Virus genome (UHGV): UHGV-0234394
Length of the DNA stretch: 36,353 nt
Reading direction: 5' to 3' (one strand)
Origin: a virus
Shown here: positions 5,275 through 30,982 of the stretch, piece after piece
Position numbering within the stretch: position 1 is the stretch's first letter
Layout of the letters: the number at the start of each line of letters is the position of its first letter
Notes under the pieces: model-generated
Seen by the model: the letters and a program-made list of their open reading frames with translations, nothing else
Told to the model about the DNA's origin: nothing
Database searches by the model: none
Made by a program: the position numbers and the translations under genes

Positions 5275-8097
5275 ATGACGGCAGAGTACATCAGGGACTG
5301 GCAACAACCGCGCCACGCAGTGGGGCGTGAAGGAACGGGGATCCCCGCTCCTGAATCCGCGCTTTCCTCCTGGCTGGATGCCTACCGGGTAGAGAACGAG
5401 CACCGCCAGGAAATGGCTGATGCGGCGTTCTCCGCAACGCCGCTGGGCAACCTGATTAATAAAAGCCTGGACGCACAGGAAAAACAGGACAAAACCATCA
5501 CACTGGCAGGAGATGCCAGAAAACAGGCACGCGGCGCGGTGGATGAAGCCATGGCCTCGCTGCGCCTGCTGCCGTCCTATCTGCGCGATCCGCTTATTCG
5601 CCACCTCTCCTTCCTGTGCAAAAAACAGGAAGCCGATCGTCAGAAAGGCAAAAAGAGCTGGCAGGCTGAACGCTACGCGCGCGGAAACCTGCGCAAAATA
5701 TTCGAACGTCTGGAGCGCACCGATCACCGCTGGCTGACACAGGGTTATCGCTCCCTTGCCGGACGCGAACGCCTGGACGATTTGCTTTACCTGCCGCAGC
5801 TCAACAAACACCAGATACAGACACTGGCCACCATGACGGCGGCGATGTTCAGCAGCACCTTCGAAAAACTCTGCGATGGCTTTGGCGCGACCGATGGCGA
5901 ACTGACCATGGATGTAACACTGAAGGCGTATCAGATGCTGGCCCGCATGGCGTTACACCTGCACGCCATGCCTCCACATTATGACGCACTGACAACAGAC
6001 AAAGACCGGAGGAACGAACCGGACACGGAGCTGCTGCCGGGCGCAATCCTTCGCCTGACCTGTGCAGAATGGTGGAAACGCAAACTGTGGCTGTTACGTT
6101 GCGAGTGGAGAGAAGAACAACTCCGCGCCGCCTGTCTGGTTTCCAGAAAAACATCGCCCTATCTGAGCCAGGACGCGTTAAGCGAGTTTCGCGCACAGCG
6201 CGAGAAAACACGCGATTTCCTGAAAAGTTTCATGCTGGAAAATGAAGACGGGTTCACGATTGATCTCGAGACGGTGTATTACGCGGGAGTAAGTAACCCG
6301 GTTCACCGTAAGGCAGAAATGATGGCCACCATGAAGGGGCTGGAACTTCTGGCCGAAGCCCGTGGCGACAAAGCGGTGTTTCTGACTGTCACCTGCCCGT
6401 CAAAATACCACGCCACAACAGAGAACGGTCATCCGAATCCCAAATGGAACGGGGCCACCATGCGCGACTCCAGCGATTACCTGGTTAACACGTTTTTTGC
6501 GGCGGTCCGCAAAAAACTGAACCGCGACGGTCTTCGCTGGTATGGCATCCGCACGGTGGAGCCTCACCATGACGGCACCGTGCACTGGCATATGATGGTC
6601 TTTGCTCATCCGGAAGAAATCGACAGCATCGTGGCCATCACCCGCGATATTGCCATTCAGGAAGACCGCCACGAGCTGGGCAATGATATTACTCCGCGCT
6701 TTAAGGCGGAGTATGTCGACGGCTCAAAAGGCACACCAACCAGCTATATCGCGACCTACATCGGAAAGAACCTGGACAGCCGCGCCGTGGATGGCATCGA
6801 CCCGAAAACGGGCAAGCCACGCGTTGACCACGAAACCGGAAAATCAATGGCCGAGAGTGTGGAGCGCGCCATCGGCTGGGCGCGCCTTCATCGGGTCCGC
6901 CAGTTCCAGTTCTTTGGCATCCCCTCCCGTCAGGTGTGGCGTGAACTGCGCCGCCTTGCCAGCCAGATGGCACGCAACCCGGAAGGCCCGCAACGACTGA
7001 AAGATGACGCAATGGATGCGGTACTCGCTGCCGCCGATGCCGGGTGTTTTGCCACCTACATTGAAAAACAGGGCGGCGTACTTGTTCCACGCAAAGACTA
7101 CCTGATTCGCACCGCCTACGACCTCGCAGATGAGCTGAATGATTACGGCGAACAGAGCGTACAGATTTACGGGATCTGGTCACCACTCATCGGGGAATCC
7201 TCCCGTGTGTGCACGCATCCGGATAACTGGAAACTGGTAAGACGTAAACCGGAAACGGAAGACAGCGCCCGCGAAAATGGTTTTGACCTTCAGGGCGGCC
7301 CTGCCGCCCCTTGGACTCGTGGCAATAACTGTCCCCGTGTACAGGAAACGGACAACAACGGGACAGAACAGCCGGAAGAACGGCCAGCACCGTGGCCGCA
7401 GCTCCCTGACGGCGTTGATGTGGATGAATGGATGCGCTCACTGAAACGGCACGAACGCCGGGCGCTGATGCGTTCGCTTCGTGACAAACAGGCAAAAAAC
7501 AGCAGTGATGAAATGCAGAGCTGGACACAGAGCCGCAAACAGCAGCGGCCTTTGCCTGATAACCACGAATTACTCGCTAAAGAATGGCGGGAGTCTGCTG
7601 AATCTCTCGGCCTGCATATCGGTGAACAACAGATGCAGCACCTGTTACGGGGCGGCAGTCTGTACGTTGACGGCAGCATCATTGCACCGCAGGGATTTGA
7701 AATTGTACGCAAACCGGATACTCGCCCGGACAGCCGAATCACGCAGCTCTGGCAGCGCCTGAGCCGTAATCACGGCGTAAGTAGCACGGAGATCCGCCAT
7801 AACCCGGTCGCCAGCTATCTGGAACAGCTGGAGGCATCAGACCCCGAAGCCGCCGCACGCCTGGCATCCACACTTCAGCAGGACCAGAACACCATGAAAA
7901 CACCCGTTACCGTGCTTTCTGACATGCTGCGCGCCATCCGCGACGCAGAGCACGCACAGAGAATCAGTGAAACCACTGAACGCGCCCGCCGCAAAGCAGA
8001 CCTGCTGCGGGGTGGCCTGACCAGTGGAAACAAAAAACAGACAGAAACGGGACTCACGAATCCCGTAAATGAGCAAAAAACGCGCAGCGATATATGA
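5275..8097 (+). CDS. A: rolling-circle replication initiator endonuclease (P2 gpA family), long form of 940 aa
   Basis: HUH-type motif in TVHWHMMVFAH and paired tyrosines in YIATYIGK; position after the early genes as in P2. Confidence 0.85.
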   Translation: MTAEYIRDWQQPRHAVGREGTGIPAPESALSSWLDAYRVENEHRQEMADAAFSATPLGNLINKSLDAQEKQDKTITLAGDARKQARGAVDEAMASLRLLPSYLRDPLIRHLSFLCKKQEADRQKGKKSWQAERYARGNLRKIFERLERTDHRWLTQGYRSLAGRERLDDLLYLPQLNKHQIQTLATMTAAMFSSTFEKLCDGFGATDGELTMDVTLKAYQMLARMALHLHAMPPHYDALTTDKDRRNEPDTELLPGAILRLTCAEWWKRKLWLLRCEWREEQLRAACLVSRKTSPYLSQDALSEFRAQREKTRDFLKSFMLENEDGFTIDLETVYYAGVSNPVHRKAEMMATMKGLELLAEARGDKAVFLTVTCPSKYHATTENGHPNPKWNGATMRDSSDYLVNTFFAAVRKKLNRDGLRWYGIRTVEPHHDGTVHWHMMVFAHPEEIDSIVAITRDIAIQEDRHELGNDITPRFKAEYVDGSKGTPTSYIATYIGKNLDSRAVDGIDPKTGKPRVDHETGKSMAESVERAIGWARLHRVRQFQFFGIPSRQVWRELRRLASQMARNPEGPQRLKDDAMDAVLAAADAGCFATYIEKQGGVLVPRKDYLIRTAYDLADELNDYGEQSVQIYGIWSPLIGESSRVCTHPDNWKLVRRKPETEDSARENGFDLQGGPAAPWTRGNNCPRVQETDNNGTEQPEERPAPWPQLPDGVDVDEWMRSLKRHERRALMRSLRDKQAKNSSDEMQSWTQSRKQQRPLPDNHELLAKEWRESAESLGLHIGEQQMQHLLRGGSLYVDGSIIAPQGFEIVRKPDTRPDSRITQLWQRLSRNHGVSSTEIRHNPVASYLEQLEASDPEAAARLASTLQQDQNTMKTPVTVLSDMLRAIRDAEHAQRISETTERARRKADLLRGGLTSGNKKQTETGLTNPVNEQKTRSDI

Positions 8098-8173
8098 AGC
8101 GCGCACAAAACAGGCAAAAGCGGGATTTAAAAATCCTGTAACCGATTAATTAATCAACATAAGGAAAAGCGAC

Positions 8174-8338
8174 ATGAAAATTTGTATCGACGACGGCTCC
8201 ACCAACATCAAGCTGGCATGGACGCACTGTCGCCCTGCATGGAGAAAAACAATAAAAAAGATGAATAACTGCTCATGTCAGACGCGCTGCGGGCAAGTCT
8301 GGCACCCTGCCCTGTTTCCGCAAAGGCTGTTGTCTTAA
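8174..8338 (+). pseudogene. remnant of a ParM/StbA-like actin-type ATPase gene (N-terminal 16 codons only)
   Basis: 54-codon ORF begins MKICIDDGSTNIKLAW, matching the ParM N-terminus (MLVFIDDGSTNIKLQW) as I recall it, then diverges. Confidence 0.35.
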
Positions 8339-8358
8339 CACGACAGAGTATGCCAGCA

Positions 8359-8766
8359 TTAAATATAATCTTCTTCGTAGTCGCTGATTAATTCATTGCC
8401 ATAATCAGACAGCAATTTCAAAGCAAAGGTAACTTCCTCAAGGGTAGCTATCCCCATTGCTGAAAACACCGTTAATTTAACCAGCAGCAGGGAGTTTGAA
8501 AGTTCGGAAGAGTTCATCATTAAAAATATTGATGCAGCCTGAAAAGCTGTGCGTTTATTCCCATCATGAAAGGCATGAGCCTTGGCTATACCAATCAAAT
8601 ACATAGCAGCCAGAGCATGAATATCATCAACCCCTTCATAGTAGTGTAGTGTCCTGACGCGATTTAAAGCACCTTCAAGTAGCCCGTCATTGGCATTTCC
8701 GCTCTGGGGTAAAGTTTCAGCATGGATACGTTCTACTTGTTCTTTTGACAAAAACACTATGTCCAT
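8359..8766 (-). CDS. Doc/Fic-family toxin (death-on-curing type)
   Basis: 135 aa with Doc-type motif HAFHDGNKRTA; start overlaps the stop of the upstream antitoxin gene; AT-rich. Confidence 0.8.
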   Translation of the reverse strand: MDIVFLSKEQVERIHAETLPQSGNANDGLLEGALNRVRTLHYYEGVDDIHALAAMYLIGIAKAHAFHDGNKRTAFQAASIFLMMNSSELSNSLLLVKLTVFSAMGIATLEEVTFALKLLSDYGNELISDYEEDYI

Positions 8767-9122
8767 CAGTTATCCTCAAGCTTTTTAATGATATCCGCAT
8801 GTTTTTCTCTTGTACGCTTCATTGCATCTTCAAAAGACAATCCTTTTTTTCTCTGTGCGACAAGAGCTGGATGACGTTTTTCCAGATCTCTCACTGCATT
8901 TATTAAGAGTGGTTGCTTCATTTTGTTTATTTGATCCCGCAGTTTTTTGGTTTTGCCAAGGACAGCCCGTATTTCAGGACTAAGATCAGAACCAGCAAGA
9001 ACAACATCCTTCCCTCCCTGCGCAGTGATAACGACACTGCCACCGGAAGAAAGGTAATCCAGAATTTCACTCAGGTTCTCACGAAATTCATCATCAGTTA
9101 CAGTTTTCATATTCATTTCCAT
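8766..9122 (-). CDS. Phd/YefM-like antitoxin
   Basis: 118 aa; N-terminal region (FRENLSEILDYLSSGGSVVITAQGGKDVVL) has the Phd/YefM pattern; first gene of the two-gene operon. Confidence 0.65.
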   Translation of the reverse strand: MEMNMKTVTDDEFRENLSEILDYLSSGGSVVITAQGGKDVVLAGSDLSPEIRAVLGKTKKLRDQINKMKQPLLINAVRDLEKRHPALVAQRKKGLSFEDAMKRTREKHADIIKKLEDN

Positions 9123-9197
9123 TATGCACGCCCATAACGTAAGTATAACGGCTTGTTGGGCAGTAATAACACCGCCATATTTTCATTTTATACACCG

Positions 9198-9223
9198 CAC
9201 AATAGTGCACAAATTTGCACAAT
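9198..9223. promoter_or_regulatory. three 10-bp phased GCACAA repeats, candidate operator over the TA promoter
   Basis: GCACAA at 9198-9203, 9208-9213, 9218-9223; on the minus strand these overlap a -35-like TTGTGC followed by TATAAAAT. Confidence 0.45.
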
Positions 9224-9239
9224 TTTTTTGAACAACTTT

Positions 9240-9350
9240 TTACCCTTCCGGCCCGCGTGGCGACTGGATCCGTCAGGGATCCGTGCGTGCACAAAAAAAC
9301 GCGTTTTTTCTGCGCGCAGGTGACGGGGGAACAGCCCGCGTTTCAGGGGG
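9240..9350. other. candidate cos region
   Basis: GC-rich segment between the A-side accessory genes and the packaging genes; ggtgacgggggaacagc (9319-9335) and gcgtggcg (about 9250) resemble the P2/186 cohesive-end sequences as recalled; A7CGCGT6 palindrome at about 9292-9308. Confidence 0.3.
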
Positions 9351-9721
9351 TAAATAGCATTCCCTGAACGATGTCGCAGAGACACAACAGAATGGCCATA
9401 TTTCTCACGCTGAGCATGAAAAAGGCGTGAGGGCTTTTGATTTGATGGGGTGAAAGGTAAGGCCGTCAAAATCGCACTGAGGCAGCGAGAACATACAGTC
9501 AACGCGGTGGAATTGCGTAAGAGTCTGACCGTCGATGGTGGCGATAAACTGGAAGGCGTCGTGAAATTATCTGATTGATACAGGAGCTGGAGAGCCGGGG
9601 CATAAATTTTTTATGCCCCGGCGAAGCAGCAGACAAGCGAAGCGCGTCAGCGATACGGCACCTTGCCGACCATACTTCATAAGTGCAAAATACGAGCAAA
9701 GAAATCAATGGAGGCTGTCTT

Positions 9722-10246
9722 ATGGTCATTAATTACAAGCAGTTAAGAGAAAAACGGGAGCAGGTAAAGGAGAGCTTTCGCCGCAATGAAGATCTGACCC
9801 CGCTTGTACGCCTTGCCCAGGGCATTGTTGATGCTTATGAAATCTCGCTGGAGCTGCCATCACAGACCTGGACAGATAGCGACGGTAATCGCCAGCATTA
9901 CGTTTCATGCGGACTGGAAGCAGCCGAAGGATTTCGCAGAATGCCTTTATCCCAGATCCCTGCCGCTACCCCCAAAGCATGGGGCAGCAATGATGAGCGA
10001 AAACTGACTTTTAGTATTGAAACGGTGGTTGACGACACACCTGGCGAAGTCGCGTTCGTACACACTCCTGTTTCGATCGCAATGTATAACGATGAAATAC
10101 AGGTTCGCGTTAATAATAATATCGTGCCACTTAAAGAAGGTAATTCACCCTACACCACCGTTTGTGAAGCCATTCAATATTACGTTCTCTCTGAAATTGA
10201 TAATCTCAAGCCTGACGGCACCCAGAAAATGGTTCAACTCTGGTAA
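9722..10246 (+). CDS. hypothetical protein (174 aa), accessory gene of unknown function
   Basis: Track ORF 9683..10246; ATG at 9722 has GGAGG 7 nt upstream; no recognisable motif; ends at a bidirectional terminator. Confidence 0.6.
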   Translation: MVINYKQLREKREQVKESFRRNEDLTPLVRLAQGIVDAYEISLELPSQTWTDSDGNRQHYVSCGLEAAEGFRRMPLSQIPAATPKAWGSNDERKLTFSIETVVDDTPGEVAFVHTPVSIAMYNDEIQVRVNNNIVPLKEGNSPYTTVCEAIQYYVLSEIDNLKPDGTQKMVQLW

Positions 10247-10277
10247 AAAGGACAGCCCCATCACGGGGCTGTTTTTT
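10245..10277. terminator. bidirectional intrinsic terminator
   Basis: A5, stem acagcccc/ggggctgt, then T6; sits between convergent ORFs. Confidence 0.7.
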
Positions 10278-11307
10278 CATCAAGAAGAGCATAAGAGTTA
10301 AAACGGATCACCTCTTCGCCAAGCCAGTCATTGATGTGCTTCATAGCCTCCATGACGGGCATCAGCTCGTTAATTGCGTAAACCCGCGCTGCCTTCTCCA
10401 CATCGCCAAACGCACTTTTTTCGCCCGGCATCGCCCCCATCAGTTGCGGCGGAACGCGGTGCGCAGCCAGCACATCATCACGGGATGCCGCCTTAACATT
10501 CATGAATTCATCTTTTGCGGTGATCTGCTGGAACGGCAAAATTTGCACCCCCTCTTTGCCCCCGTTGGGCGCATGAATGAGCACGTTTTTAAACGCACCA
10601 CCACCACGTGCCCCCTGTAGCGTTTCTTTCAGGGAGTCCATGCTTTCGCGGTTTACCTGCGCTGCACCGATGTAGATGATGCACCCGGCGTGGGATCCGT
10701 TGTCGTAGTACAGTTTTCTGAACATGTCCGCCGAATGAGAAAGGCTGGCCGAGAGTAATGCGCCAAGATATTCCGGCATGCCGTAGATTTCCTGGTTAAT
10801 ATCCGGATTCATCAGGTGGCACACTTTGCCAGGACGAAACTGAAACGCGTCCTTGCCATCCTGCACATACCACCATGATTCAAGATCGCTTCCGCGTCGC
10901 ATGTATTTCGCCAGGGCGTGCCGTAATTTAAGCGGTTCGCCGAGCATATTGCTTCGAAGCTCAAGGAATGCGTTACCGAACACAAACCAGTCCAGCGCCA
11001 GCGCCGAGAAATCCTGCCGGGAAAGCAGCGGGTGCGGGATGTAGCAACCGAGTAATACATTGCGCTTAAAGTAAAGCGCAGACTGATGCCAGGACGTTTG
11101 CCGGGCAGCTCTTGCCAGACCGTACCAGTCCACCGGGGTTTCATACCACCGCCCGTTATCAGCACAGTACATATTGTCCAGCAGGTCATGCCCGGTCAGG
11201 CGATAAGGACCATCAAATGTGAATGCACTGAGCGATGATTCTTTCCTGAGCGCATCAGCGAGATCAATGCGTGAACTCATGCGCACTTTTTTATTTTTTC
11301 TGCTCAT
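10261..11307 (-). CDS. Q: portal protein (P2 Q-like)
   Basis: 348 aa; position and orientation as P2 Q, adjacent to terminase; start codon not refined. Confidence 0.8.
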   Translation of the reverse strand: MSRKNKKVRMSSRIDLADALRKESSLSAFTFDGPYRLTGHDLLDNMYCADNGRWYETPVDWYGLARAARQTSWHQSALYFKRNVLLGCYIPHPLLSRQDFSALALDWFVFGNAFLELRSNMLGEPLKLRHALAKYMRRGSDLESWWYVQDGKDAFQFRPGKVCHLMNPDINQEIYGMPEYLGALLSASLSHSADMFRKLYYDNGSHAGCIIYIGAAQVNRESMDSLKETLQGARGGGAFKNVLIHAPNGGKEGVQILPFQQITAKDEFMNVKAASRDDVLAAHRVPPQLMGAMPGEKSAFGDVEKAARVYAINELMPVMEAMKHINDWLGEEVIRFNSYALLDEKTAP

Positions 11308-13058
11308 CAGAACTCCATAACTGTGAAACGCTCGTTTTCTCCTTCGCCGCCAATTGGTTCGTTAATGACAGCAAGCATGGTTGCCCACGCAAGGTCGCCG
11401 TGGCTGATCCCCCTCGCGCGGTCCGTTTCGTAAGTGATAAAGCCGCCCGGTGTTTTCACCTTACGCACGGCGTTAAAGGCTGCGACCAGCTCGCGTTCGG
11501 CGCGATCGTATTCCCACCGCCCGGCACGCATTATTTGCAGCATTTTCAGTACCAGCGACCGTTTTGATGACAGCGTGAAGGTGTACGGAATAGCAGCAGG
11601 GAAAAACCGTTTCACTATCTGATAAACAGCCTCCCCGTTCCCGCCCGTCACATCAATGCCGATGTGTTCCACGTTGTAGCGACACGTGAACTCTTCAATG
11701 ACTCTGGCCTGTTCTTCAAACTCCAGCCCCTGAACGCGTCGCGTCTCCACCGTTCGAAAACGGCCACCAGGAACAGACGGAGGAACCACCACGGACACAG
11801 CGCCGCTGTCGCCGTTGCCACTGCTGCCGTTTGCGTCATACCCAATCCATACCGGACGATTCCCCATCGGGCGGGGAGCAAAAGGTTTCCAGTCTTTCCA
11901 GTCGTCGTATCCGTCAACACCACAGCCAATCAGGATATTCAGGTTAAATGCCGATTCCCCTTCGCGGACAAACTCACACATATAGAGATTGAGGAACTCG
12001 TCTTCGGTGTTTTCATCACGAATTTCATCAATATCGGTGTGTTTCCAGCCGTGATTAACCACATCTTCCAGCGTGACAATTTGCCGCCACGTCCGGTCAG
12101 GGCAGATAAGCCCGTTATGCAGCGTTTTCCAGTCCACAGAAAAACGCTGGCGTTTATGCGTGGCCTTTTTCTCGTTCCAGCGGTCGCCGTTCCAGTAGGC
12201 GTATGCCTCGTGCGTTTCGGTGGATGGCGTGGAGAAGTAGGTGCGCCGCAGTCCGCTGAGGGTTGCCATAGCGCCAGCCACCTTGCGCAGTTCAGCAAAG
12301 CGACTGACCCAGAAAAATTCATCAAAATAAAAATTGCCCGTATAGGACTGCGCCGACGCAGCAGAAGTGCCGAGAAAATGCAGCTCTGCGCCGTTGGAGA
12401 GGATGATTTTATCGCCCCCTTTCAGCTCCACATCAACTTCAGCCGCGGCCTTCTGAATAATGCTTTTAAACTGGAACGCCTGACGACGCGACGCAGACAA
12501 AAAAATCTGGTTACGCTGGTAAGGTTGCGCCACATCGTCACGCAGCGCCATCAGCAGTGCTTCCTGTGCAAAATACCAGGTCGCGCCAATCTGTCGGGAT
12601 TTCAGGATCATCCTGTTACGTATCCCGGCTTCCCTGCAAAGGGTCAGGGAGTCAAACCAGCCCCGCTGATGCCACTCCAGCCTGCTGATGATTTTTTCCC
12701 GCAGTGCGGCAATCTGTTCCGGCGTGAAATGATTTTTGAGTTTTTTCGCCCGGCCTTTCTTTCCTGTGGCCGTCGCATCCGGCTGGCCATCATGCATTTT
12801 TTTAAGCTGCCGGGTCAGCAGGTCTATTTCCTTAAAGTCACCGCCTGTTTTATTCTGTTTTTCAGTAAGCTGGATGAGGCGCGCATCGATGGACTGCGTG
12901 ACACGCTGCACGGGTGGCGTTTCATCCCACTGGTCGCGTTTTTTCCACGCATAAATCGTGTTCGGGTTTATTCCCATCAGACGTGATATTTCTGCGGGCG
13001 GATAACCCTGCCAGTAAAGTTGCCGCGCACGCTGGCGCACAAAAGCGTCCTGAATCAT
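11307..13058 (-). CDS. P: terminase large (ATPase) subunit (P2 P-like)
   Basis: 583 aa; same size class and position as P2 P, divergent from O. Confidence 0.85.
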   Translation of the reverse strand: MIQDAFVRQRARQLYWQGYPPAEISRLMGINPNTIYAWKKRDQWDETPPVQRVTQSIDARLIQLTEKQNKTGGDFKEIDLLTRQLKKMHDGQPDATATGKKGRAKKLKNHFTPEQIAALREKIISRLEWHQRGWFDSLTLCREAGIRNRMILKSRQIGATWYFAQEALLMALRDDVAQPYQRNQIFLSASRRQAFQFKSIIQKAAAEVDVELKGGDKIILSNGAELHFLGTSAASAQSYTGNFYFDEFFWVSRFAELRKVAGAMATLSGLRRTYFSTPSTETHEAYAYWNGDRWNEKKATHKRQRFSVDWKTLHNGLICPDRTWRQIVTLEDVVNHGWKHTDIDEIRDENTEDEFLNLYMCEFVREGESAFNLNILIGCGVDGYDDWKDWKPFAPRPMGNRPVWIGYDANGSSGNGDSGAVSVVVPPSVPGGRFRTVETRRVQGLEFEEQARVIEEFTCRYNVEHIGIDVTGGNGEAVYQIVKRFFPAAIPYTFTLSSKRSLVLKMLQIMRAGRWEYDRAERELVAAFNAVRKVKTPGGFITYETDRARGISHGDLAWATMLAVINEPIGGEGENERFTVMEF

Positions 13059-25900: not shown

Positions 25901-28741
25901 TCAATCTTTATCGTAAAAACTGCCACGCCCGGCACGGGCGCGCCGTTCCATTTCTGCCCTGACCATTTCACCGACCAGTTTCGCCAGTTCGCGGGGATTC
26001 TGCGTAACAACGTTATGCAGATGAACATGAATTTCACCACCAAATCCGGAGGCAACAGGCTCCCGGTTACGGGAAGTTACAGGAACTGATGCCACTGGAG
26101 ATCGTATGGCCTCCGCCACCGGGCGGGAGCTGGCCGCAACAACAGGGACCAGCGCCGGAGGCAGCGGAGCCGGGACCGCGGGTGTGATATTAATTGCGGG
26201 GGGCTTACTGACCTGCGCAATCTTCCGCTCCTGCCACTCCCCACGAACAGCAAGTGCGCGGGGCAGGTTCTTAAAGACAATATCGCCGGGGCCAATGCGT
26301 TTTTTCGTCTCATCAACCAGCTTACCTGTGTTATCAGCAATTTTGCTGAGTCTGCGCAGCGTACCGGTATTGCTGTCTGTGAGCGGTTTATTGTCTTTGG
26401 GGTTATCACCTCCGGTGCCATTGCCATTTTCCACAGGCTTCGGCGGATTGATTTTCGCCAGGTCCCCCTGAAGCAAGGCAACCTTGTCCTGAAGAATGGC
26501 CGCACGCTGTGCGTCTTCGATTTTCTTGCGCGCCCTTTCCGCTTCATCCGGAAGGACGCCAAGTTTTTCAAGTATCCACGCCAGCGTATCCAGCAGCATT
26601 TTTGCAGGTGTCAGAACAAGCTGTAACGCACCGCCAAGAACGTTACCGAATATCTCGCCAGCACTGGTACATTTATCCAGCGTTTCCTTGCTGGACTCCA
26701 TCGGTGACAGCAGCGATTTAAACCAGTTAAACACCTGGCTGATCCCGCTCCCGATTGCGTCAAAAACAGGACCAAACCGTTCAAAGGTTTCGCGCAACGG
26801 GGTCAGCCTTTCCATAATCCCGCTGAACACCCCGGCAAAAAATGCCCTGATGGGATCCCAGTATTTCCAGATAAGAACGGCAGCTCCGGCAAGCGCAGCC
26901 ACGATAAGACCAACCGGACTGAACAACGCCCCGATAGCGCCTCCCAGCAAAGAAACAGAACCCGTCACCATTCCCCACAGCGCAGGCAACACCCTGATGA
27001 CATTCATTGACCGGGTAAGAATGTCGAAACCAAGACGCAGGGTGGCCAGCTTCCCGTAAAGCCCCCCAATAACCAGCGACAACGAGCCAATCGTTGCTGT
27101 CATTGCCAGCAACGCACCGCCTGCTATCAGTAGCTGGCGCGTCAGTACCGGATGGGCCTGCGCCAGCGAGGTGATTTTTTCAAGCACCCGCGTGAGCCAC
27201 TGCGTGACAGAACGCAGCGGACCGTCAACCAGATCACTGATGCGAATACGAAGACCTTCCCATGCGCTGTCGAGATTTTTCAGGTCCCCATCAAGATTAT
27301 CGGCCATTACTTTTGCAACGCGATCGGCCTCTCCCCTTGCCCCCTGCAATTCTCTGGTCAGTTTTTGCAGTTCTCCTGAACCAGCCGCCGCAACAAGCGT
27401 CTGCAAACCAACGAACGCCTCTTCTCCGGCGATGTCCTTAAAGAAGGAGACCTGGTCCACCTGTCCGTATTTTTGTGTCGCCTTATAGAGATCAAGCAGC
27501 ACATCCTCCATCGGGCGCATTTTGCCTCTGGCGTCAGCAACTGACACCCCCAGCTCTTTCAGTGCATCAGCCGCAGCTTTTGGCGGTGATGCAAGGCGGG
27601 ACAGACTTGCGCGCATGGCCGTACCAGCATCGCTTCCGCGAAGACCATTATTGGCAAGCATCCCGGCCATGGCCGCCGCTTCTTCAAGACTGATACCAAG
27701 TTTTGCAGCAACCGGACCGGTATACTTCATGGTTTCGCCCAGCGCGCGTAAATCAGTATTGGTCCGGGTAAATGCTGCTGTCAGCGTATCACCCACCCGG
27801 TCCATTTGATCGGCTGTCAGGTTGAACTGTGTGAGGATATTGGAGCCTATATCAGCCGTCTCGCCGAGTTCGACGCCACCTGCCAGCGCCATATTAAGAA
27901 CACCGGGCAATGCGGCCTGAATGGCCTGCGGAGTAAAACCAGCCATTGCCAGAAAGCTCTGCCCACTGGCGGCATCACTCGCAGTAAACTGTGTTTCAGA
28001 GCCAAGTTTTAACGCCTGCTCACGCAGCGCCTTAAACTGCGGGCTGTTTTTGTCGATTCGCGTCAGTGCCTGAACGCGGGACATCTCTTTGCCGAACCCG
28101 ATCGCAGGCTGCAAAAAACGCCCGACAGCATAGCCGCCCGCCGCTGCCGCACCAATTGCCAGCGCACCACCTGTTTTCAGTTTTCCCGCGGTTTCCTGCG
28201 CGCGCGAATACCGCTCACGCGCCCGCGTTACACGCGCAAGCGCCTGCCGTTCGCGTTCAAGCTGGTTGTTGTACTGTTCGGTGCGTCTGATGGCCTGCTG
28301 GATGGTGTTATCGCTGCCTGTCAGGGAAATGCCGTGGCGTTTCAGCTCTCCGCCAAGTTCCCGCATTTTCTGAATTTCCCGTGTGCGCGATTCATTCAGG
28401 CGTTCAAGCCGGGTGCTTAACTGCTGCATCAGCTTTTGTTGTTTTTCGCTGAGCACTGTACCCGTGCGTTGTAACTGATTAAGGGCGTTAAGCTGGCGTC
28501 GTGCTTTCACGATACCCGCATCCGCTTTACTGACAGCGTCGCGGGCGCGCTCAAATGAACGCGCCTGACGCTCGAGATTTTTGATCGCCCCCTGCGTTCG
28601 CTGGATGGAGTCACCAAACTGCCCCATCAGGCGGCGGGCGTTTTCGGCAGGCCGGGTCAGCCTGTCAACGGCGCTGAAAGCGACCCGGATATCAAGAGTC
28701 TTCATTGTCTGCATTCCCGCTGCGAAGTGCCGCCCGCTCAC
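25901..28741 (-). CDS. T: tail tape measure protein (P2 T-like)
   Basis: 946 aa, Ala/Gly/Leu-rich with helical heptad-like regions and a hydrophobic central segment; start not refined. Confidence 0.85.
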   Translation of the reverse strand: MSGRHFAAGMQTMKTLDIRVAFSAVDRLTRPAENARRLMGQFGDSIQRTQGAIKNLERQARSFERARDAVSKADAGIVKARRQLNALNQLQRTGTVLSEKQQKLMQQLSTRLERLNESRTREIQKMRELGGELKRHGISLTGSDNTIQQAIRRTEQYNNQLERERQALARVTRARERYSRAQETAGKLKTGGALAIGAAAAGGYAVGRFLQPAIGFGKEMSRVQALTRIDKNSPQFKALREQALKLGSETQFTASDAASGQSFLAMAGFTPQAIQAALPGVLNMALAGGVELGETADIGSNILTQFNLTADQMDRVGDTLTAAFTRTNTDLRALGETMKYTGPVAAKLGISLEEAAAMAGMLANNGLRGSDAGTAMRASLSRLASPPKAAADALKELGVSVADARGKMRPMEDVLLDLYKATQKYGQVDQVSFFKDIAGEEAFVGLQTLVAAAGSGELQKLTRELQGARGEADRVAKVMADNLDGDLKNLDSAWEGLRIRISDLVDGPLRSVTQWLTRVLEKITSLAQAHPVLTRQLLIAGGALLAMTATIGSLSLVIGGLYGKLATLRLGFDILTRSMNVIRVLPALWGMVTGSVSLLGGAIGALFSPVGLIVAALAGAAVLIWKYWDPIRAFFAGVFSGIMERLTPLRETFERFGPVFDAIGSGISQVFNWFKSLLSPMESSKETLDKCTSAGEIFGNVLGGALQLVLTPAKMLLDTLAWILEKLGVLPDEAERARKKIEDAQRAAILQDKVALLQGDLAKINPPKPVENGNGTGGDNPKDNKPLTDSNTGTLRRLSKIADNTGKLVDETKKRIGPGDIVFKNLPRALAVRGEWQERKIAQVSKPPAINITPAVPAPLPPALVPVVAASSRPVAEAIRSPVASVPVTSRNREPVASGFGGEIHVHLHNVVTQNPRELAKLVGEMVRAEMERRARAGRGSFYDKD

Positions 28742-28958
28742 GCCAGCTAACCACTTCGCCGGGCGTCATCATGAAGATTTCGGCGGGCGACCAGTTAAAA
28801 ATGGCGGCGATATCTGCCACCAGATCTTCGATGTGCTCAAAGCACACCAGGGTGATTACGCTGCCGTCTCCTGCACGCTCTTCGCGCCAGAGTCTGGCTC
28901 GCTCATAAAATTTACAGCCACAGCGCACAACTGAATAAAATCGCGTGACGACATTTTT
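28692..28958 (-). CDS. E' frameshift extension of the tail assembly chaperone (E+E')
   Basis: Open in the -1 frame relative to E from 28958 downward; only entry point is the A7 run at 28954-28960 inside E. Confidence 0.5.
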   Translation of the reverse strand, partial: KNVVTRFYSVVRCGCKFYERARLWREERAGDGSVITLVCFEHIEDLVADIAAIFNWSPAEIFMMTPGEVVSWRERAALRSGNADNEDS

Positions 28959-29230
28959 TTAATCATCACTTCATCCAGTCGTGGCGAGGTCACGCGAGGC
29001 AACAGCGTGAACATGGTATCCGCTTTCAGATTCAGCACATCAGACAGCGACAGACCACGCAGGGATCCAGCCTGTTCAATAGCCCCGGTGATCTCCACAT
29101 ACGTGATTTTTTCGCCACCACGCTCAATTGGTCGGGTCAGTTTTACGCCACGTTCGACAGCCATAACCTCACCTGCCGTCACATCATCCGCCACGGTGTT
29201 ATTCCGGGTTTCAGTATCGATGTCTTTCAT
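28856..29230 (-). CDS. E: tail assembly chaperone (P2 E-like)
   Basis: 124 aa between tail tube and tape measure genes; contains the A7 slippery run near its 3' end. Confidence 0.7.
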   Translation of the reverse strand: MKDIDTETRNNTVADDVTAGEVMAVERGVKLTRPIERGGEKITYVEITGAIEQAGSLRGLSLSDVLNLKADTMFTLLPRVTSPRLDEVMIKKMSSRDFIQLCAVAVNFMSEPDSGAKSVQETAA

Positions 29231-29285
29231 CAGTTGTCTCCTTTTCAGTCAGAGGCGACGCACTGCGCCGCCTGCATATTACTTA

Positions 29286-29798
29286 TCAGCCAAGCCCAAG
29301 CGCGGAACGGATGCGGTCAGGCACAATGTCCTTGCCGTCCTTCCGGTAGATGTGGTTCAACAGGTCGATTTCCCACAGCGGGCGATCGTTAACGCTCAGC
29401 TTGTAGTAGGTGTTTTTGACAGCGTAAGTGTGTGATGTGGCTTCGCCCTGTTTGGCTTCCCCCATATCAATTTCCGTCACACGCCCGCGCATCTCGATTT
29501 CATACAGATCGCTTTCTGCATCGGTGTAGTATTCACCCGCAAAACGCAGCAGCGTGCCGTCAATCGTGCCGCCATATTTAAGGAACAGCGCACGAACAGC
29601 TCCCCCCATGACAAAACTCGCATCAAGTGCGGAGTCGTCCAGACCGAGATCAATACTTACTGCCCCCATCATGCCACCACCACGATAGCTGTCGGTTTTG
29701 CGCGTCAGTTTGGGCGGCGTGACGGATGTCACTTTACCCACTTCGTTTTCACCATCCACAAACAACGTAAAAAAGCGAAGATGTTTTGGTACAGCCAT
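29286..29798 (-). CDS. FII: tail tube protein (P2 FII-like)
   Basis: 170 aa; position after sheath gene. Confidence 0.8.
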   Translation of the reverse strand: MAVPKHLRFFTLFVDGENEVGKVTSVTPPKLTRKTDSYRGGGMMGAVSIDLGLDDSALDASFVMGGAVRALFLKYGGTIDGTLLRFAGEYYTDAESDLYEIEMRGRVTEIDMGEAKQGEATSHTYAVKNTYYKLSVNDRPLWEIDLLNHIYRKDGKDIVPDRIRSALGLG

Positions 29799-30982
29799 CA
29801 GGCACCTCCCAGCACCGCAAATGCGGGACCAAAGAATTCATCAGTAAACGACTGGTAAAGCTCCATGTCTTCCAGTGGCGGAACGGGCGTATATTTGTAG
29901 CGAATACGCACACGTCCCTGACGTAAATTCGTGGTGCCGTTATCCACCACGTCATACCAGCACTCCGCGCCAATCAGTTTCCCGGCAGTAACCAGCGAAT
30001 CCAGTTTTGCCCTGATGGCGCTGATAACATCCTTCACGTTCGCAGGTGTCAGTGGACTGTCGATGGTTTCAAACTGCGCTTCCGCAATTGAATCAGCCAG
30101 CACCTGTGCGGTTCGGGTATACACCTCAAAGATGTAGGCGTTCGTTTCCGGTGTGCGGTTGCCCCAGAAGCGGAACCCGTTGCGACGAATAATGGTCGTG
30201 ATTTCTTTGTTGTTGAGGCTGTTGGCATCGCTGTCTTCGGCCTGCAACGACCAGAACACATGCCTGGACATTCCCAGCACATTTTTAACCGGAACGTTGG
30301 ACAGCGATTTGTGCCAGCCCTGCTCATGGTCAATGTACGCACGAAGGCCGCACGCATAAGCAGGCGCGGGGAACGTTTCGTTTTTGCCACTTTTCGGGTT
30401 GTAGGCGATGAAGTCCGGCCATAAGAGCATCACCTCACGTTCGTTGAATTTCTGGCGGTAGGTAATCGCCTCAGCCATCGTGTTACAGCCGTGACATGAG
30501 GCATACACAAACGCGCGCAGTTTACCTGCAATCACGCACAGGGATTTTGTTACAGCCTCCGTGTCCAGCTCCGGCGCGGCCAGAATACGCGGACGGTATC
30601 CGATGCTTTCATCCTGCTCTGCAACAAGCAGCGCATACATCCCCGTATAGCTGCCGTCATCCTCAGAACCACCGATAACCAGTTGATCCTGCGTCTTTCC
30701 GTCTTCTTCTTTGTGTTCAGCCACGCGAACGACGATCACCTTTGTGCTCACCTGGTCTGCGATGGCCTTAAGCGCACGATAAAGCGTCCCCGTTGTCCCG
30801 CATTTTCCCAGCACGTCATTGACGCGGGTCAGCAGTGTGGGCTTATTCAGCGGGAACAGCTTCGCGTCCGCATCATCCGCCGTTGCCACGATACCGATAA
30901 CGCTGGAATCAACATCGTTAATCGCTGTTACCAGGTCGGTATTTTCCGTAACACGGGCACCATGAAAACGAGTTTCACTCAT
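29798..30982 (-). CDS. FI: contractile tail sheath protein (P2 FI-like)
   Basis: 394 aa; extensive resemblance to P2 FI (KLRAF, WPDF, EQGWHK, LIRR-GFRFWGNRT, YTPVPPLE motifs). Confidence 0.9.
   Translation of the reverse strand: MSETRFHGARVTENTDLVTAINDVDSSVIGIVATADDADAKLFPLNKPTLLTRVNDVLGKCGTTGTLYRALKAIADQVSTKVIVVRVAEHKEEDGKTQDQLVIGGSEDDGSYTGMYALLVAEQDESIGYRPRILAAPELDTEAVTKSLCVIAGKLRAFVYASCHGCNTMAEAITYRQKFNEREVMLLWPDFIAYNPKSGKNETFPAPAYACGLRAYIDHEQGWHKSLSNVPVKNVLGMSRHVFWSLQAEDSDANSLNNKEITTIIRRNGFRFWGNRTPETNAYIFEVYTRTAQVLADSIAEAQFETIDSPLTPANVKDVISAIRAKLDSLVTAGKLIGAECWYDVVDNGTTNLRQGRVRIRYKYTPVPPLEDMELYQSFTDEFFGPAFAVLGGA

What the first reader, a model, noticed from the sequence alone, without database searches (positions are those of the whole stretch)
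9683..10246. Unknown 174-aa gene wedged between the putative cos region and the portal gene
A well-formed ORF (ATG 9722, GGAGG SD, bidirectional terminator at its end) encodes a protein with no motif I can recognise. If the cos region is where I propose (9240-9350), this gene lies between cos and Q, where P2 has no gene. That makes it a likely recently acquired accessory gene at a variable locus.
Basis: inference. Interest (0 to 1): 0.6.

Follow-up and report, generated by a model that had tools for sequence, protein, structure and literature searches.

The report
Uncharacterised accessory gene between cos and portal
A real, conserved 174-aa gene of unknown function sits as a self-contained accessory cassette between the DNA-packaging site and the portal gene of a P2-family prophage; it is an untested passenger of an already known anti-phage hotspot, and is old rather than recently acquired.

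Summary
The ORF is real. It starts at ATG 9722, has a GGAGG Shine-Dalgarno and ends at a bidirectional terminator. It matches PHROG 5091 ("unknown function", E=1e-67) and evolves under purifying selection (dN/dS 0.12-0.19).

The window is a P88-like (Xuanwuvirus, P2-family) E. coli prophage. Compared with phage P88, window 9651-10278 is a 628-bp cassette that replaces about 16 bp. The likely cos cleavage site is GGTGACGGGGGAACAGCCC at 9319-9337, so the gene does lie between cos and Q, where P2 has no gene.

About 31% of P88-type cos regions in complete E. coli genomes carry the cassette (397 of 5426 genomes). Its presence is independent of the cargo on the gpA side of cos.

"Recently acquired" is not supported. 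Orthologues occupy the same slot in Salmonella and Morganella P2-like prophages, and their divergence tracks the portal's. One E. coli prophage carries two diverged paralogues there. Distant relatives sit at accessory sites in lambdoid and other phages, each followed by a terminator-like hairpin.

A high-confidence structure model (pLDDT 90) has no convincing structural relative and no defence-family match. Rousset et al. 2022 list the protein as "hypothetical" in the gpA-gpQ hotspot; I found no test of it.

My best guess is a prophage-expressed, binding-type phage-conflict factor. Function remains unproven.

The parts
9195..9650 (.). Conserved non-coding cos block. It is bounded on the left by variable gpA-side cargo and on the right by the cassette.
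   Evidence: 92-98% identical in P88-type phages. Present in 1142 of 5426 complete E. coli genomes, at 1307 places.
9197..9229 (+). Three GCACAA repeats at 10-bp spacing followed by a T7 run. This is one of the two islands conserved across genera. It may be a terminase-binding or terminator element.
   Evidence: Invariant in Enterobacter phage phiT5282H. Flagged as terminator-like. P2 has TGCA repeats at the same distance left of cos, but that alignment is weak (E=0.31).
9319..9337 (+). Candidate cos cleavage site, GGTGACGGGGGAACAGCCC.
   Evidence: Exact copy in P88, phiT5282H, L020, L022 and L023. Three mismatches to the Trabulsiella variant, which itself has four mismatches to P2 cos. Same orientation relative to Q as in P2. 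Not mapped experimentally.
9594..9622 (.). Perfect 13-bp palindromic hairpin, conserved in P88. It is probably the ancestral terminator or insulator downstream of Q.
   Evidence: -24.6 kcal/mol on + and -24.2 on -, z -5.2 and -6.6. Conserved in alignment A1.
9651..10278 (+). The 628-bp cassette that is present here and absent from P88. It holds the promoter-like site, SD, ORF, terminator and the last five codons of Q.
   Evidence: Alignment with P88 and P88_4B11. Portal C-termini are EKTAP here and TQPTS in P88. Found in 397 E. coli genomes, always beside the portal gene.
9663..9691 (+). Putative sigma-70 promoter: TTGCCG (9663-9668), 17-nt spacer, CAAAAT (9686-9691).
   Evidence: TTG and CAAAAT, and their spacing, are invariant across orthologues with 60-88% protein identity, while the spacer has diverged. 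It scores only 8 of 12 to consensus and was missed by the scan threshold.
9710..9714 (+). Shine-Dalgarno GGAGG.
   Evidence: Read from the sequence. GGAG is invariant in the orthologues.
9722..10246 (+). CDS for a 174-aa soluble acidic protein (19.8 kDa, pI 4.9) of the PHROG 5091 family.
10252..10277 (.). Bidirectional rho-independent terminator shared by the ORF and Q.
10261..11307 (-). Portal gene Q. It is convergent with the ORF, and its stop codon lies in the terminator loop.
   Evidence: Pfam Phage_portal, E=8e-18. 98.3% identical to the P88 portal.

Best explanation
**What it is.** The gene is a 'moron': a self-contained accessory cassette with a promoter-like site, SD, one ORF and a terminator. 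It sits in the short stretch between cos and the 3' end of portal gene Q in a P88-like, P2-family prophage. It is dispensable for the phage, old in this slot, and belongs to a mobile family (PHROG 5091) found at accessory sites of several kinds of temperate phage.

**The product.** It encodes a soluble, mildly acidic 20-kDa alpha/beta protein with no catalytic motif. The model shows an N-terminal helical hairpin, an antiparallel sheet and a C-terminal helix.

**Most likely mechanism (inferred, not shown).** The gene is transcribed from its own weak constitutive promoter in the lysogen. The protein binds a protein of an incoming phage or satellite, or of the host, and so interferes with a competitor. 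The logic resembles P2 Tin, which is unrelated in sequence.

**Shown here:** gene reality, cassette structure, position relative to cos, polymorphism, age and mobility.
**Inferred:** expression in the lysogen, a binding mode of action, and a defensive direction.

**Confidence.** The value given (0.4) is for the whole statement including the defensive mechanism. The moron description alone I would put at about 0.85.
For: **Real gene.** PHROG 5091 match at E=1.4e-67. dN/dS is 0.12-0.19.

**Cassette.**
- It is an indel relative to P88 and P88_4B11.
- GC content is 47%, against 53% for Q and P.
- A conserved TTG-N3-17-CAAAAT plus GGAG footprint lies upstream.
- A terminator-like hairpin or GC-rich stem with a T-run follows every homologue I inspected. 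In L025 this is the conserved cos-block palindrome.

**Dispensable and polymorphic.**
- The cassette occurs at 401 places, against 1307 P88-type cos blocks.
- Phage records exist both with and without it.
- Cargo on the gpA side varies independently: Phd/Doc here, ParM/ParR in strain 266917_2, others in L020-L023.

**Known hotspot.**
- It lies inside the gpA-gpQ hotspot, where old, tin and newer defence systems have been validated (PMC9122126; PMC9519451).
- The Trabulsiella homologue sits next to HicB and Phd/Doc in that hotspot.

**Diversification.**
- Two paralogues only 25% identical stand in tandem in L023.
- At L023 the ORF is 88% identical to the window while the portal is 99.7% identical.

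**No enzyme signature.**
- Most of the top matches are protein-interaction modules: Med17C, the PI31/Fbxo7 FP domain, capping protein, Imm52 and TriTu.
Against: - There is no experimental evidence of any kind.
- No PADLOC, Pfam or NCBIfam match exists for the protein or its relatives.
- The promoter is weak: 8 of 12 to consensus, below the scanner's threshold.
- In lambdoid prophages the family sits between the late antiterminator Q and the holin. In two other contigs it sits inside tail modules. Both are late-transcribed regions, so a role during lytic growth, such as counter-defence, fits about equally well.
Confidence: 0.4

Rival explanations
1. It is a counter-defence or late-acting inhibitor. 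The protein is made during lytic growth and binds a host or rival-element immune component, for example a sensor triggered by late phage proteins, or a satellite factor that hijacks packaging. This protects the phage's own development.
For: - Five lambdoid contexts place the gene directly after the late antiterminator and before the lysis genes.
- One context places it between the lysis and terminase genes.
- Two contexts place it inside tail modules.
- The protein is small, acidic and soluble, with a fold not seen before.
- Tandem diverged paralogues exist.
Against: - In P2-like phages the gene is convergent with the late P-Q operon and has no TGT-N12-ACA late-promoter element upstream (sequence inspection).
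- A terminator-like hairpin directly after the gene in every context is typical of autonomously transcribed morons, not of late-operon genes.
- Known anti-defence genes are usually expressed early (general knowledge).
Confidence: 0.25
2. It is a virion-associated accessory protein, packaged into the head or bound near the portal and possibly injected. P1 DarA would be the analogue.
For: - The gene lies beside the portal and terminase genes here.
- It sits in late-region contexts in other phages.
Against: - The gene is transcribed away from the head operon.
- It is absent from about 69% of otherwise near-identical phages, whose portals are 98% identical.
Confidence: 0.07
3. It is a lysogenic-conversion factor acting on the host (physiology or virulence) and has no role in phage-phage conflict.
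For: - The Q-to-holin slot of lambdoid phages, where distant relatives sit, also carries stx and porin genes in other phages (general knowledge).
- Matching records include strains labelled O25b:H4-ST131, O111, O103, O55:H7 and NCCP15648.
Against: - The protein has no signal peptide or transmembrane segment. Its most hydrophobic 19-aa stretch has mean hydropathy of only 0.86.
- It has no toxin or effector domain.
- It is spread across commensal and environmental isolates as well.
Confidence: 0.12
4. It is a core packaging or structural helper of P88-type phages, for example a cos-binding accessory factor.
For: It lies next to cos, the portal gene and the terminase gene.
Against: - It is absent from P88, P88_4B11, 520873, 500465-2, 503458, Chuche and Shae_phiSM, all of which have the same cos block and portal.
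- Relatives occur in phages with unrelated packaging systems.
Confidence: 0.03

Closest known systems
Cargo of the P2 gpA-gpQ ('tin/old', cos-proximal) hotspot (Rousset et al. 2022, PMC9122126; Vassallo et al. 2022, PMC9519451)
   Same: - It lies between gpA and gpQ and is presence/absence polymorphic.
- It is a single small gene with its own transcription signals.
- It is already listed, as 'hypothetical' WP_000236496 / WP_000236495, in Table S5A of Rousset et al..
   Different: - It sits on the Q side of cos, whereas old and tin sit on the gpA side.
- Its occupancy is independent of the gpA-side cargo.
- Every occupant of this slot that I examined belongs to one protein family.
- No anti-phage activity has been tested.
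- It has no sequence similarity to Tin.
Phage 'morons' as defined for lambdoid phages (Juhala et al. 2000 and Hendrix et al. 2000, cited from memory), such as lambda bor and lom, or genes in the Q-to-S slot such as stx
   Same: - It is a single ORF flanked by a promoter-like site and a terminator.
- It is inserted between two genes that are adjacent in related phages.
- Its GC content is lower than that of its neighbours.
- Distant homologues occupy the classic antiterminator-to-holin slot.
   Different: - The promoter has not been demonstrated.
- Unlike Bor, Lom or Stx, the product is cytoplasmic and has no known target.
PHROG 5091 (unknown function)
   Same: Full-length match at E=1.4e-67. 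All 42 aligned relatives match the same PHROG.
   Different: The family carries no annotation, so membership says nothing about function.
Helix-backed antiparallel-sheet interaction modules: PI31/Fbxo7 FP domain, Med17 C-terminal domain, actin-capping protein, P1 DarA

Membership tests
PHROG 5091 | Significant full-length match to the family profile. | tested here: met
   E=1.4e-67, residues 1-168 on profile positions 1-164 of 164. 42 of 42 relatives also match.
Moron (autonomous accessory cassette) | Present in some genomes and absent from others, between genes that are otherwise adjacent and conserved. | tested here: met
   A 628-bp indel relative to P88 and P88_4B11. 401 places carry it, against 1307 cos blocks.
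Moron (autonomous accessory cassette) | Own terminator directly downstream. | tested here: met
   Hairpin at 10252-10272 plus a T-run, -21.5 kcal/mol. A terminator-like hairpin follows every homologue inspected.
Moron (autonomous accessory cassette) | Own promoter, active in the lysogen. | tested here: inconclusive
   TTGCCG-17-CAAAAT is conserved as a footprint, but it scores 8 of 12 and was not called by the scanner. No expression data.
Moron (autonomous accessory cassette) | Base composition different from the neighbouring genes. | tested here: met
   GC is 0.47 for the cassette, 0.53 for the portal gene and 0.54 for the terminase gene. The difference is modest.
P2 gpA-gpQ hotspot cargo | Encoded between replication gene A and portal gene Q of a P2-like prophage. 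| tested here: met
   gpA is at 5275-8097 and Q at 10261-11307. The protein is listed in Table S5A of PMC9122126.
Anti-phage defence system | Lowers the plating or burst of a challenging phage when expressed. | not testable with these tools
   An experiment is needed. I found no literature record for the protein or the PHROG.
Known defence families (PADLOC-DB 2.0) | Profile match to a known or candidate defence protein. | tested here: not met
   No hit for the protein. Only 1 of 42 relatives gives a hit, at E=0.009.
P2 Tin | Sequence similarity to Tin. | tested here: not met
   BLASTP best E=0.3.
P1 DarA-like head-internal proteins | Clear structural homology and presence in virions. | tested here: inconclusive

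The most novel reading that the evidence does not exclude
The short cos-to-Q interval of P2-family phages is a dedicated slot, distinct from the classic tin/old locus across cos, for one fast-diversifying family of small proteins with a fold not seen before. In this reading the family, PHROG 5091, is a new single-protein phage-conflict system: exclusion, anti-defence or anti-satellite. It would be present in about 7% of complete E. coli genomes and would move among lambdoid, P2-like and other temperate phages.
Probability: 0.3. Interest if true: 0.6.

Novelty: new member of a known kind. Interest (0 to 1): 0.36.

Why it matters
**Prevalence.** The cassette is in 397 of 5426 complete E. coli genomes, including strains labelled O25b:H4-ST131 and O111. 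It lies in the best-known prophage defence hotspot, yet I found no functional data for it.

**A finer picture of the hotspot.** The gpA-gpQ hotspot is really two independently assorting loci separated by the conserved cos block. Every occupant of the Q-side slot that I examined belongs to one protein family, sometimes as tandem diverged paralogues.

**A cheap experiment.** A 628-bp cassette with its own signals is easy to clone and challenge. A positive result would add a new small single-protein system with a new fold. A negative result would point to a late-acting or counter-defence role.

**Annotation.** The analysis gives a candidate cos site for Xuanwuvirus-type phages, which is useful for annotation and for finding their satellites.

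Tried and rejected
**Sequence and profile searches**
- Pfam, NCBIfam and PADLOC scans of the protein and of 42 relatives found nothing credible.
- A phmmer search of PDB sequences matched designed helical-repeat proteins (E=2.6e-7). These hits disappeared when a family profile was used, so I treat them as compositional artefacts.
- tblastn of two distant relatives against GenBank phages found only the four P88-type records that carry the window's allele, plus one partial match in phage CharmingMan.
- There is no similarity to P2 Tin.

**Structure searches**
- The afdb50 library was unavailable.

**Locating cos**
- Searching for the P2 cos 19-mer with up to 3 mismatches found nothing.
- BLAST of the P2 cos region against the window found nothing significant.
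- The candidate cos came from cross-genus conservation instead.
- The linear record LR595891 starts at window 9241. Its two ends are simply contiguous, so this is not a mapped terminus.

**Other**
- Profile-based locus searches failed for lack of a conserved stretch.
- Rfam found no RNA family in 8000-11500.
- The 13-codon N-terminal extension from GTG 9683 was rejected. L023 has GCG at that position and a frame-breaking indel.
- No Ogr-type late-promoter element (TGT-N12-ACA) is visible upstream of the ORF (sequence inspection).
- Literature searches for the accessions, the PHROG and P88_4B11 found no papers.

Full report
**Setting.** The window is a P2-family prophage of E. coli of the P88 type (genus Xuanwuvirus, Peduoviridae). 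Megablast of 9100-10400 finds four phage records at 99% identity over 93% of the query, and P88-type records that match only the flanks. Around the finding the layout is as follows:
- replication endonuclease gpA, 5275-8097 (+);
- a Doc toxin, 8359-8766 (-), and Phd antitoxin, 8766-9122 (-);
- a non-coding stretch, about 9195-9650;
- the ORF in question;
- portal Q, 10261-11307 (-), and terminase P, 11307-13058 (-).

The longest ORF is 9683-10246 from a GTG, but the real start is ATG 9722.
- Every homologue begins M-[VT]-[IV]-[NT]-Y.
- In the 88%-identical orthologue L023 the GTG position reads GCG, and a 2-nt indel breaks the upstream frame.
- GGAGG lies 7 nt upstream of the ATG.
- After the TAA stop, a hairpin at 10252-10272 is flanked by an A-run and a T-run. 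It folds at -21.5 kcal/mol on one strand and -18.2 on the other, both far beyond shuffled controls.
- The portal stop codon sits in the hairpin loop.

ORF length alone is not evidence, because this window has 68 ORFs of at least 110 aa. What shows a real gene is:
- a full-length match to PHROG 5091 (E=1.4e-67);
- 89 representative relatives at E<1e-3;
- dN/dS of 0.12-0.19 between orthologues.

**It is a cassette.** Aligned with P88 and P88_4B11, homology is continuous up to 9650 and resumes inside the last codons of Q.
- At the protein level both portals share ...RFN[SP]YALLD. They then end in EKTAP here and TQPTS in P88.
- The variable segment is therefore 9651-10278: 628 bp here against about 16 bp in P88.
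- It contains a promoter-like site, the SD, the ORF, the terminator and a new five-codon end for Q.
- Its GC content is 47%, against 53-54% for Q and P.
- Upstream, TTGCCG-17-CAAAAT (9663-9691) scores only 8 of 12 to consensus and was not called by the scanner.
- However, the TTG, the CAAAAT, their spacing and the GGAG are invariant in orthologues down to 60% protein identity, while the spacer has diverged. This is a phylogenetic footprint that fits a weak sigma-70 promoter.

**Where cos is.** The P2 cos 19-mer is absent, and the P2 cos region does not align significantly.
- Comparison with a different genus, Enterobacter phage phiT5282H (Novemvirus), leaves only two conserved islands. One is three GCACAA repeats plus a T-run at 9197-9229. 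The other is GCGCAGGTGACGGGGGAACAGCCC.
- The 19-mer GGTGACGGGGGAACAGCCC (9319-9337) is exact in P88, phiT5282H, two Salmonella loci and another E. coli locus.
- It forms a graded series with the Trabulsiella variant GGCGACGGGGGGACAGCGC, which has 3 mismatches to it and 4 to P2 cos. The Morganella prophage has GGCGTGGCGGGGCTACGAT followed by TGCGCGG, which is 186-like; the 186 sequence is from memory.
- Orientation relative to Q is the same as in P2.
It has not been mapped experimentally.
- P2 has nothing between cosL (1-19) and Q (187-1221) except the terminator tQ. The statement that the gene lies between cos and Q, where P2 has no gene, is therefore correct.

**Variable, but not recent.**
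- The cos block occurs at 1307 places in 1142 of 5426 complete E. coli genomes. The cassette occurs at 401 places in 397 genomes, always beside the portal gene. Occupancy is about 31%.
- Cargo on the gpA side assorts independently. It is Phd/Doc here, and ParM/ParR plus ClpX-zinc-finger genes in strain 266917_2, whose cassette is 100% identical to the window's. Other cargo is found in L020, L022 and L023.
- The gpA-gpQ hotspot is thus two loci separated by the conserved cos block.
- Orthologues lie in the same slot, convergent with Q and 14-82 bp from it, in two Salmonella lineages, another E. coli lineage and a Morganella P2-like prophage. In each case they are downstream of the cos motif.
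- Identity to the window falls in step with the backbone. For L023 / L020 / L022 / L010 the ORF is 88 / 63 / 60 / 26% identical and the portal 99.7 / 75 / 74 / 48.5%.
- This is the pattern of an old resident that is often lost and sometimes exchanged. The L023 allele is far more diverged than its portal.
- L023 also carries a second, 25%-identical paralogue of the same PHROG in tandem between cos and the first copy. Strain SCU-115 carries that paralogue alone. This second type is in 31 genomes.
- Every occupant of this slot that I examined belongs to this one family.

**A mobile family.** Profile searches reveal full-length relatives of 155-185 aa at 22-33% identity. All match PHROG 5091 and none matches a Pfam family. 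Their contexts are:
- directly after the late antiterminator and before the holin/lysin genes in five lambdoid prophages;
- between the lysis and terminase genes in Edwardsiella;
- next to gpA, with HicB and Phd/Doc, in a Trabulsiella P2-like prophage;
- inside tail modules in two viral contigs.

In every case the gene stands alone and is followed by a terminator-like hairpin or a GC-rich stem with a T-run. The close clade is narrow: only two of 185,579 species-representative genomes carry it.

**The protein.**
- It is 19.8 kDa with pI 4.9 and no hydrophobic segment.
- With the 42-sequence alignment, AlphaFold2 gives pLDDT 90.1 and pTM 0.80. The model has two N-terminal helices, a six- to seven-stranded antiparallel sheet and a C-terminal helix.
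- Foldseek against viral models finds nothing.
- Positions conserved across the family are mainly aromatic or hydrophobic, plus a DD[ST]P loop. I recognise no catalytic signature.

**What is known.** Rousset et al. 2022 defined the P2 hotspot operationally as everything between gpA and gpQ.
- Their Table S5A lists this protein (WP_000236496) and its variant (WP_000236495, at least 167 occurrences in the stored part of the file) as 'hypothetical'.
- The text names old-tin and three of the eight further cloned systems that scored positive. None of those is this protein, and I did not check the untested or negative systems in their Table S2A.
- Vassallo et al. 2022 describe the same hotspot and note that most of its genes are hypothetical.
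- I found no paper mentioning the accessions or the PHROG.

**Interpretation.** Firmly supported: this is a non-essential, autonomous accessory cassette (a moron), old in the cos-Q slot and mobile among temperate phages.

The function is inferred. I favour a prophage-expressed protein that acts by binding a component of a competing phage or satellite, with the logic of P2 Tin although unrelated to it. The reasons are the hotspot location, the conserved promoter footprint, the terminator-like hairpin downstream in every context, the independent assortment and the paralogue diversification.

The main rival is a late-acting counter-defence factor. It is favoured by the late-region contexts in lambdoid and tail-module loci. 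Virion-associated, host-directed and core-packaging roles are less likely. The last is nearly excluded by the presence/absence data.

My confidence in the moron description is about 0.85. My confidence in the specific defensive reading is about 0.35-0.4.

**Verdict.** The finding is real and correctly located, but ordinary in kind. It is an uncharacterised passenger of a known hotspot and is already catalogued without function. The modest added value is a finer picture: a separate slot on the Q side of cos, held in every case I examined by one diversifying family. The experiment to test it is straightforward.

Noticed in passing
L023 4355-4858 and 5001-5519; L025 2746-3456: One E. coli P88-type prophage carries two PHROG 5091 paralogues, 25% identical, in tandem between the cos motif and Q. 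Strain SCU-115 carries only the second type, which is annotated with a probably spurious 68-aa N-terminal extension. The second type is in 31 of 5426 complete E. coli genomes.
   Followed up: partly
window 9197-9229: Three GCACAA repeats at 10-bp spacing are followed by a T7 run, about 100-120 bp left of the candidate cos. They are invariant in a phage of another genus. P2 has TGCA repeats at a similar distance from its cos. They may be terminase-binding sites or a terminator for the gpA-side cargo.
   Followed up: partly
window 10252-10278: The portal stop codon lies in the loop of the bidirectional terminator. The last five portal codons (EKTAP) belong to the cassette and replace the TQPTS found in P88.
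   Followed up: yes
window 9594-9622: A perfect 13-bp palindromic hairpin (about -24 kcal/mol on either strand) is conserved in phages that lack the cassette. It is probably the ancestral terminator after Q and now sits upstream of the ORF.
   Followed up: partly
window 8359-9122 (-): A Phd/Doc toxin-antitoxin pair is the cargo on the gpA side of cos in this prophage. Related prophages carry ParM/ParR, HicB, a YafO-family toxin gene, or HTH/M78-peptidase genes there instead.
   Followed up: partly
L010 5090-5740 (Morganella P2-like prophage): The roughly 650 bp between an antirepressor gene and a 186-like cos motif are packed with GTTAC/GTAAC repeats. I did not analyse them.
   Followed up: no
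L007, L011, L028, L029, L030: about 45 nt upstream of the M-[ST]-[IV]-T-Y start: Many distant family members have a conserved AGGTG Shine-Dalgarno and an in-frame upstream start that adds 12-13 residues, followed by an internal GGAG/GAAGG before the second Met. This may mean dual translation starts. The clade in this window has lost the upstream start.
   Followed up: no
window 5275-8097: The gpA replication endonuclease is 940 aa. This is longer than the gpA homologues in several related loci (834-851 aa) and than P2 A (about 761 aa, from record coordinates 28034-30319).
   Followed up: no
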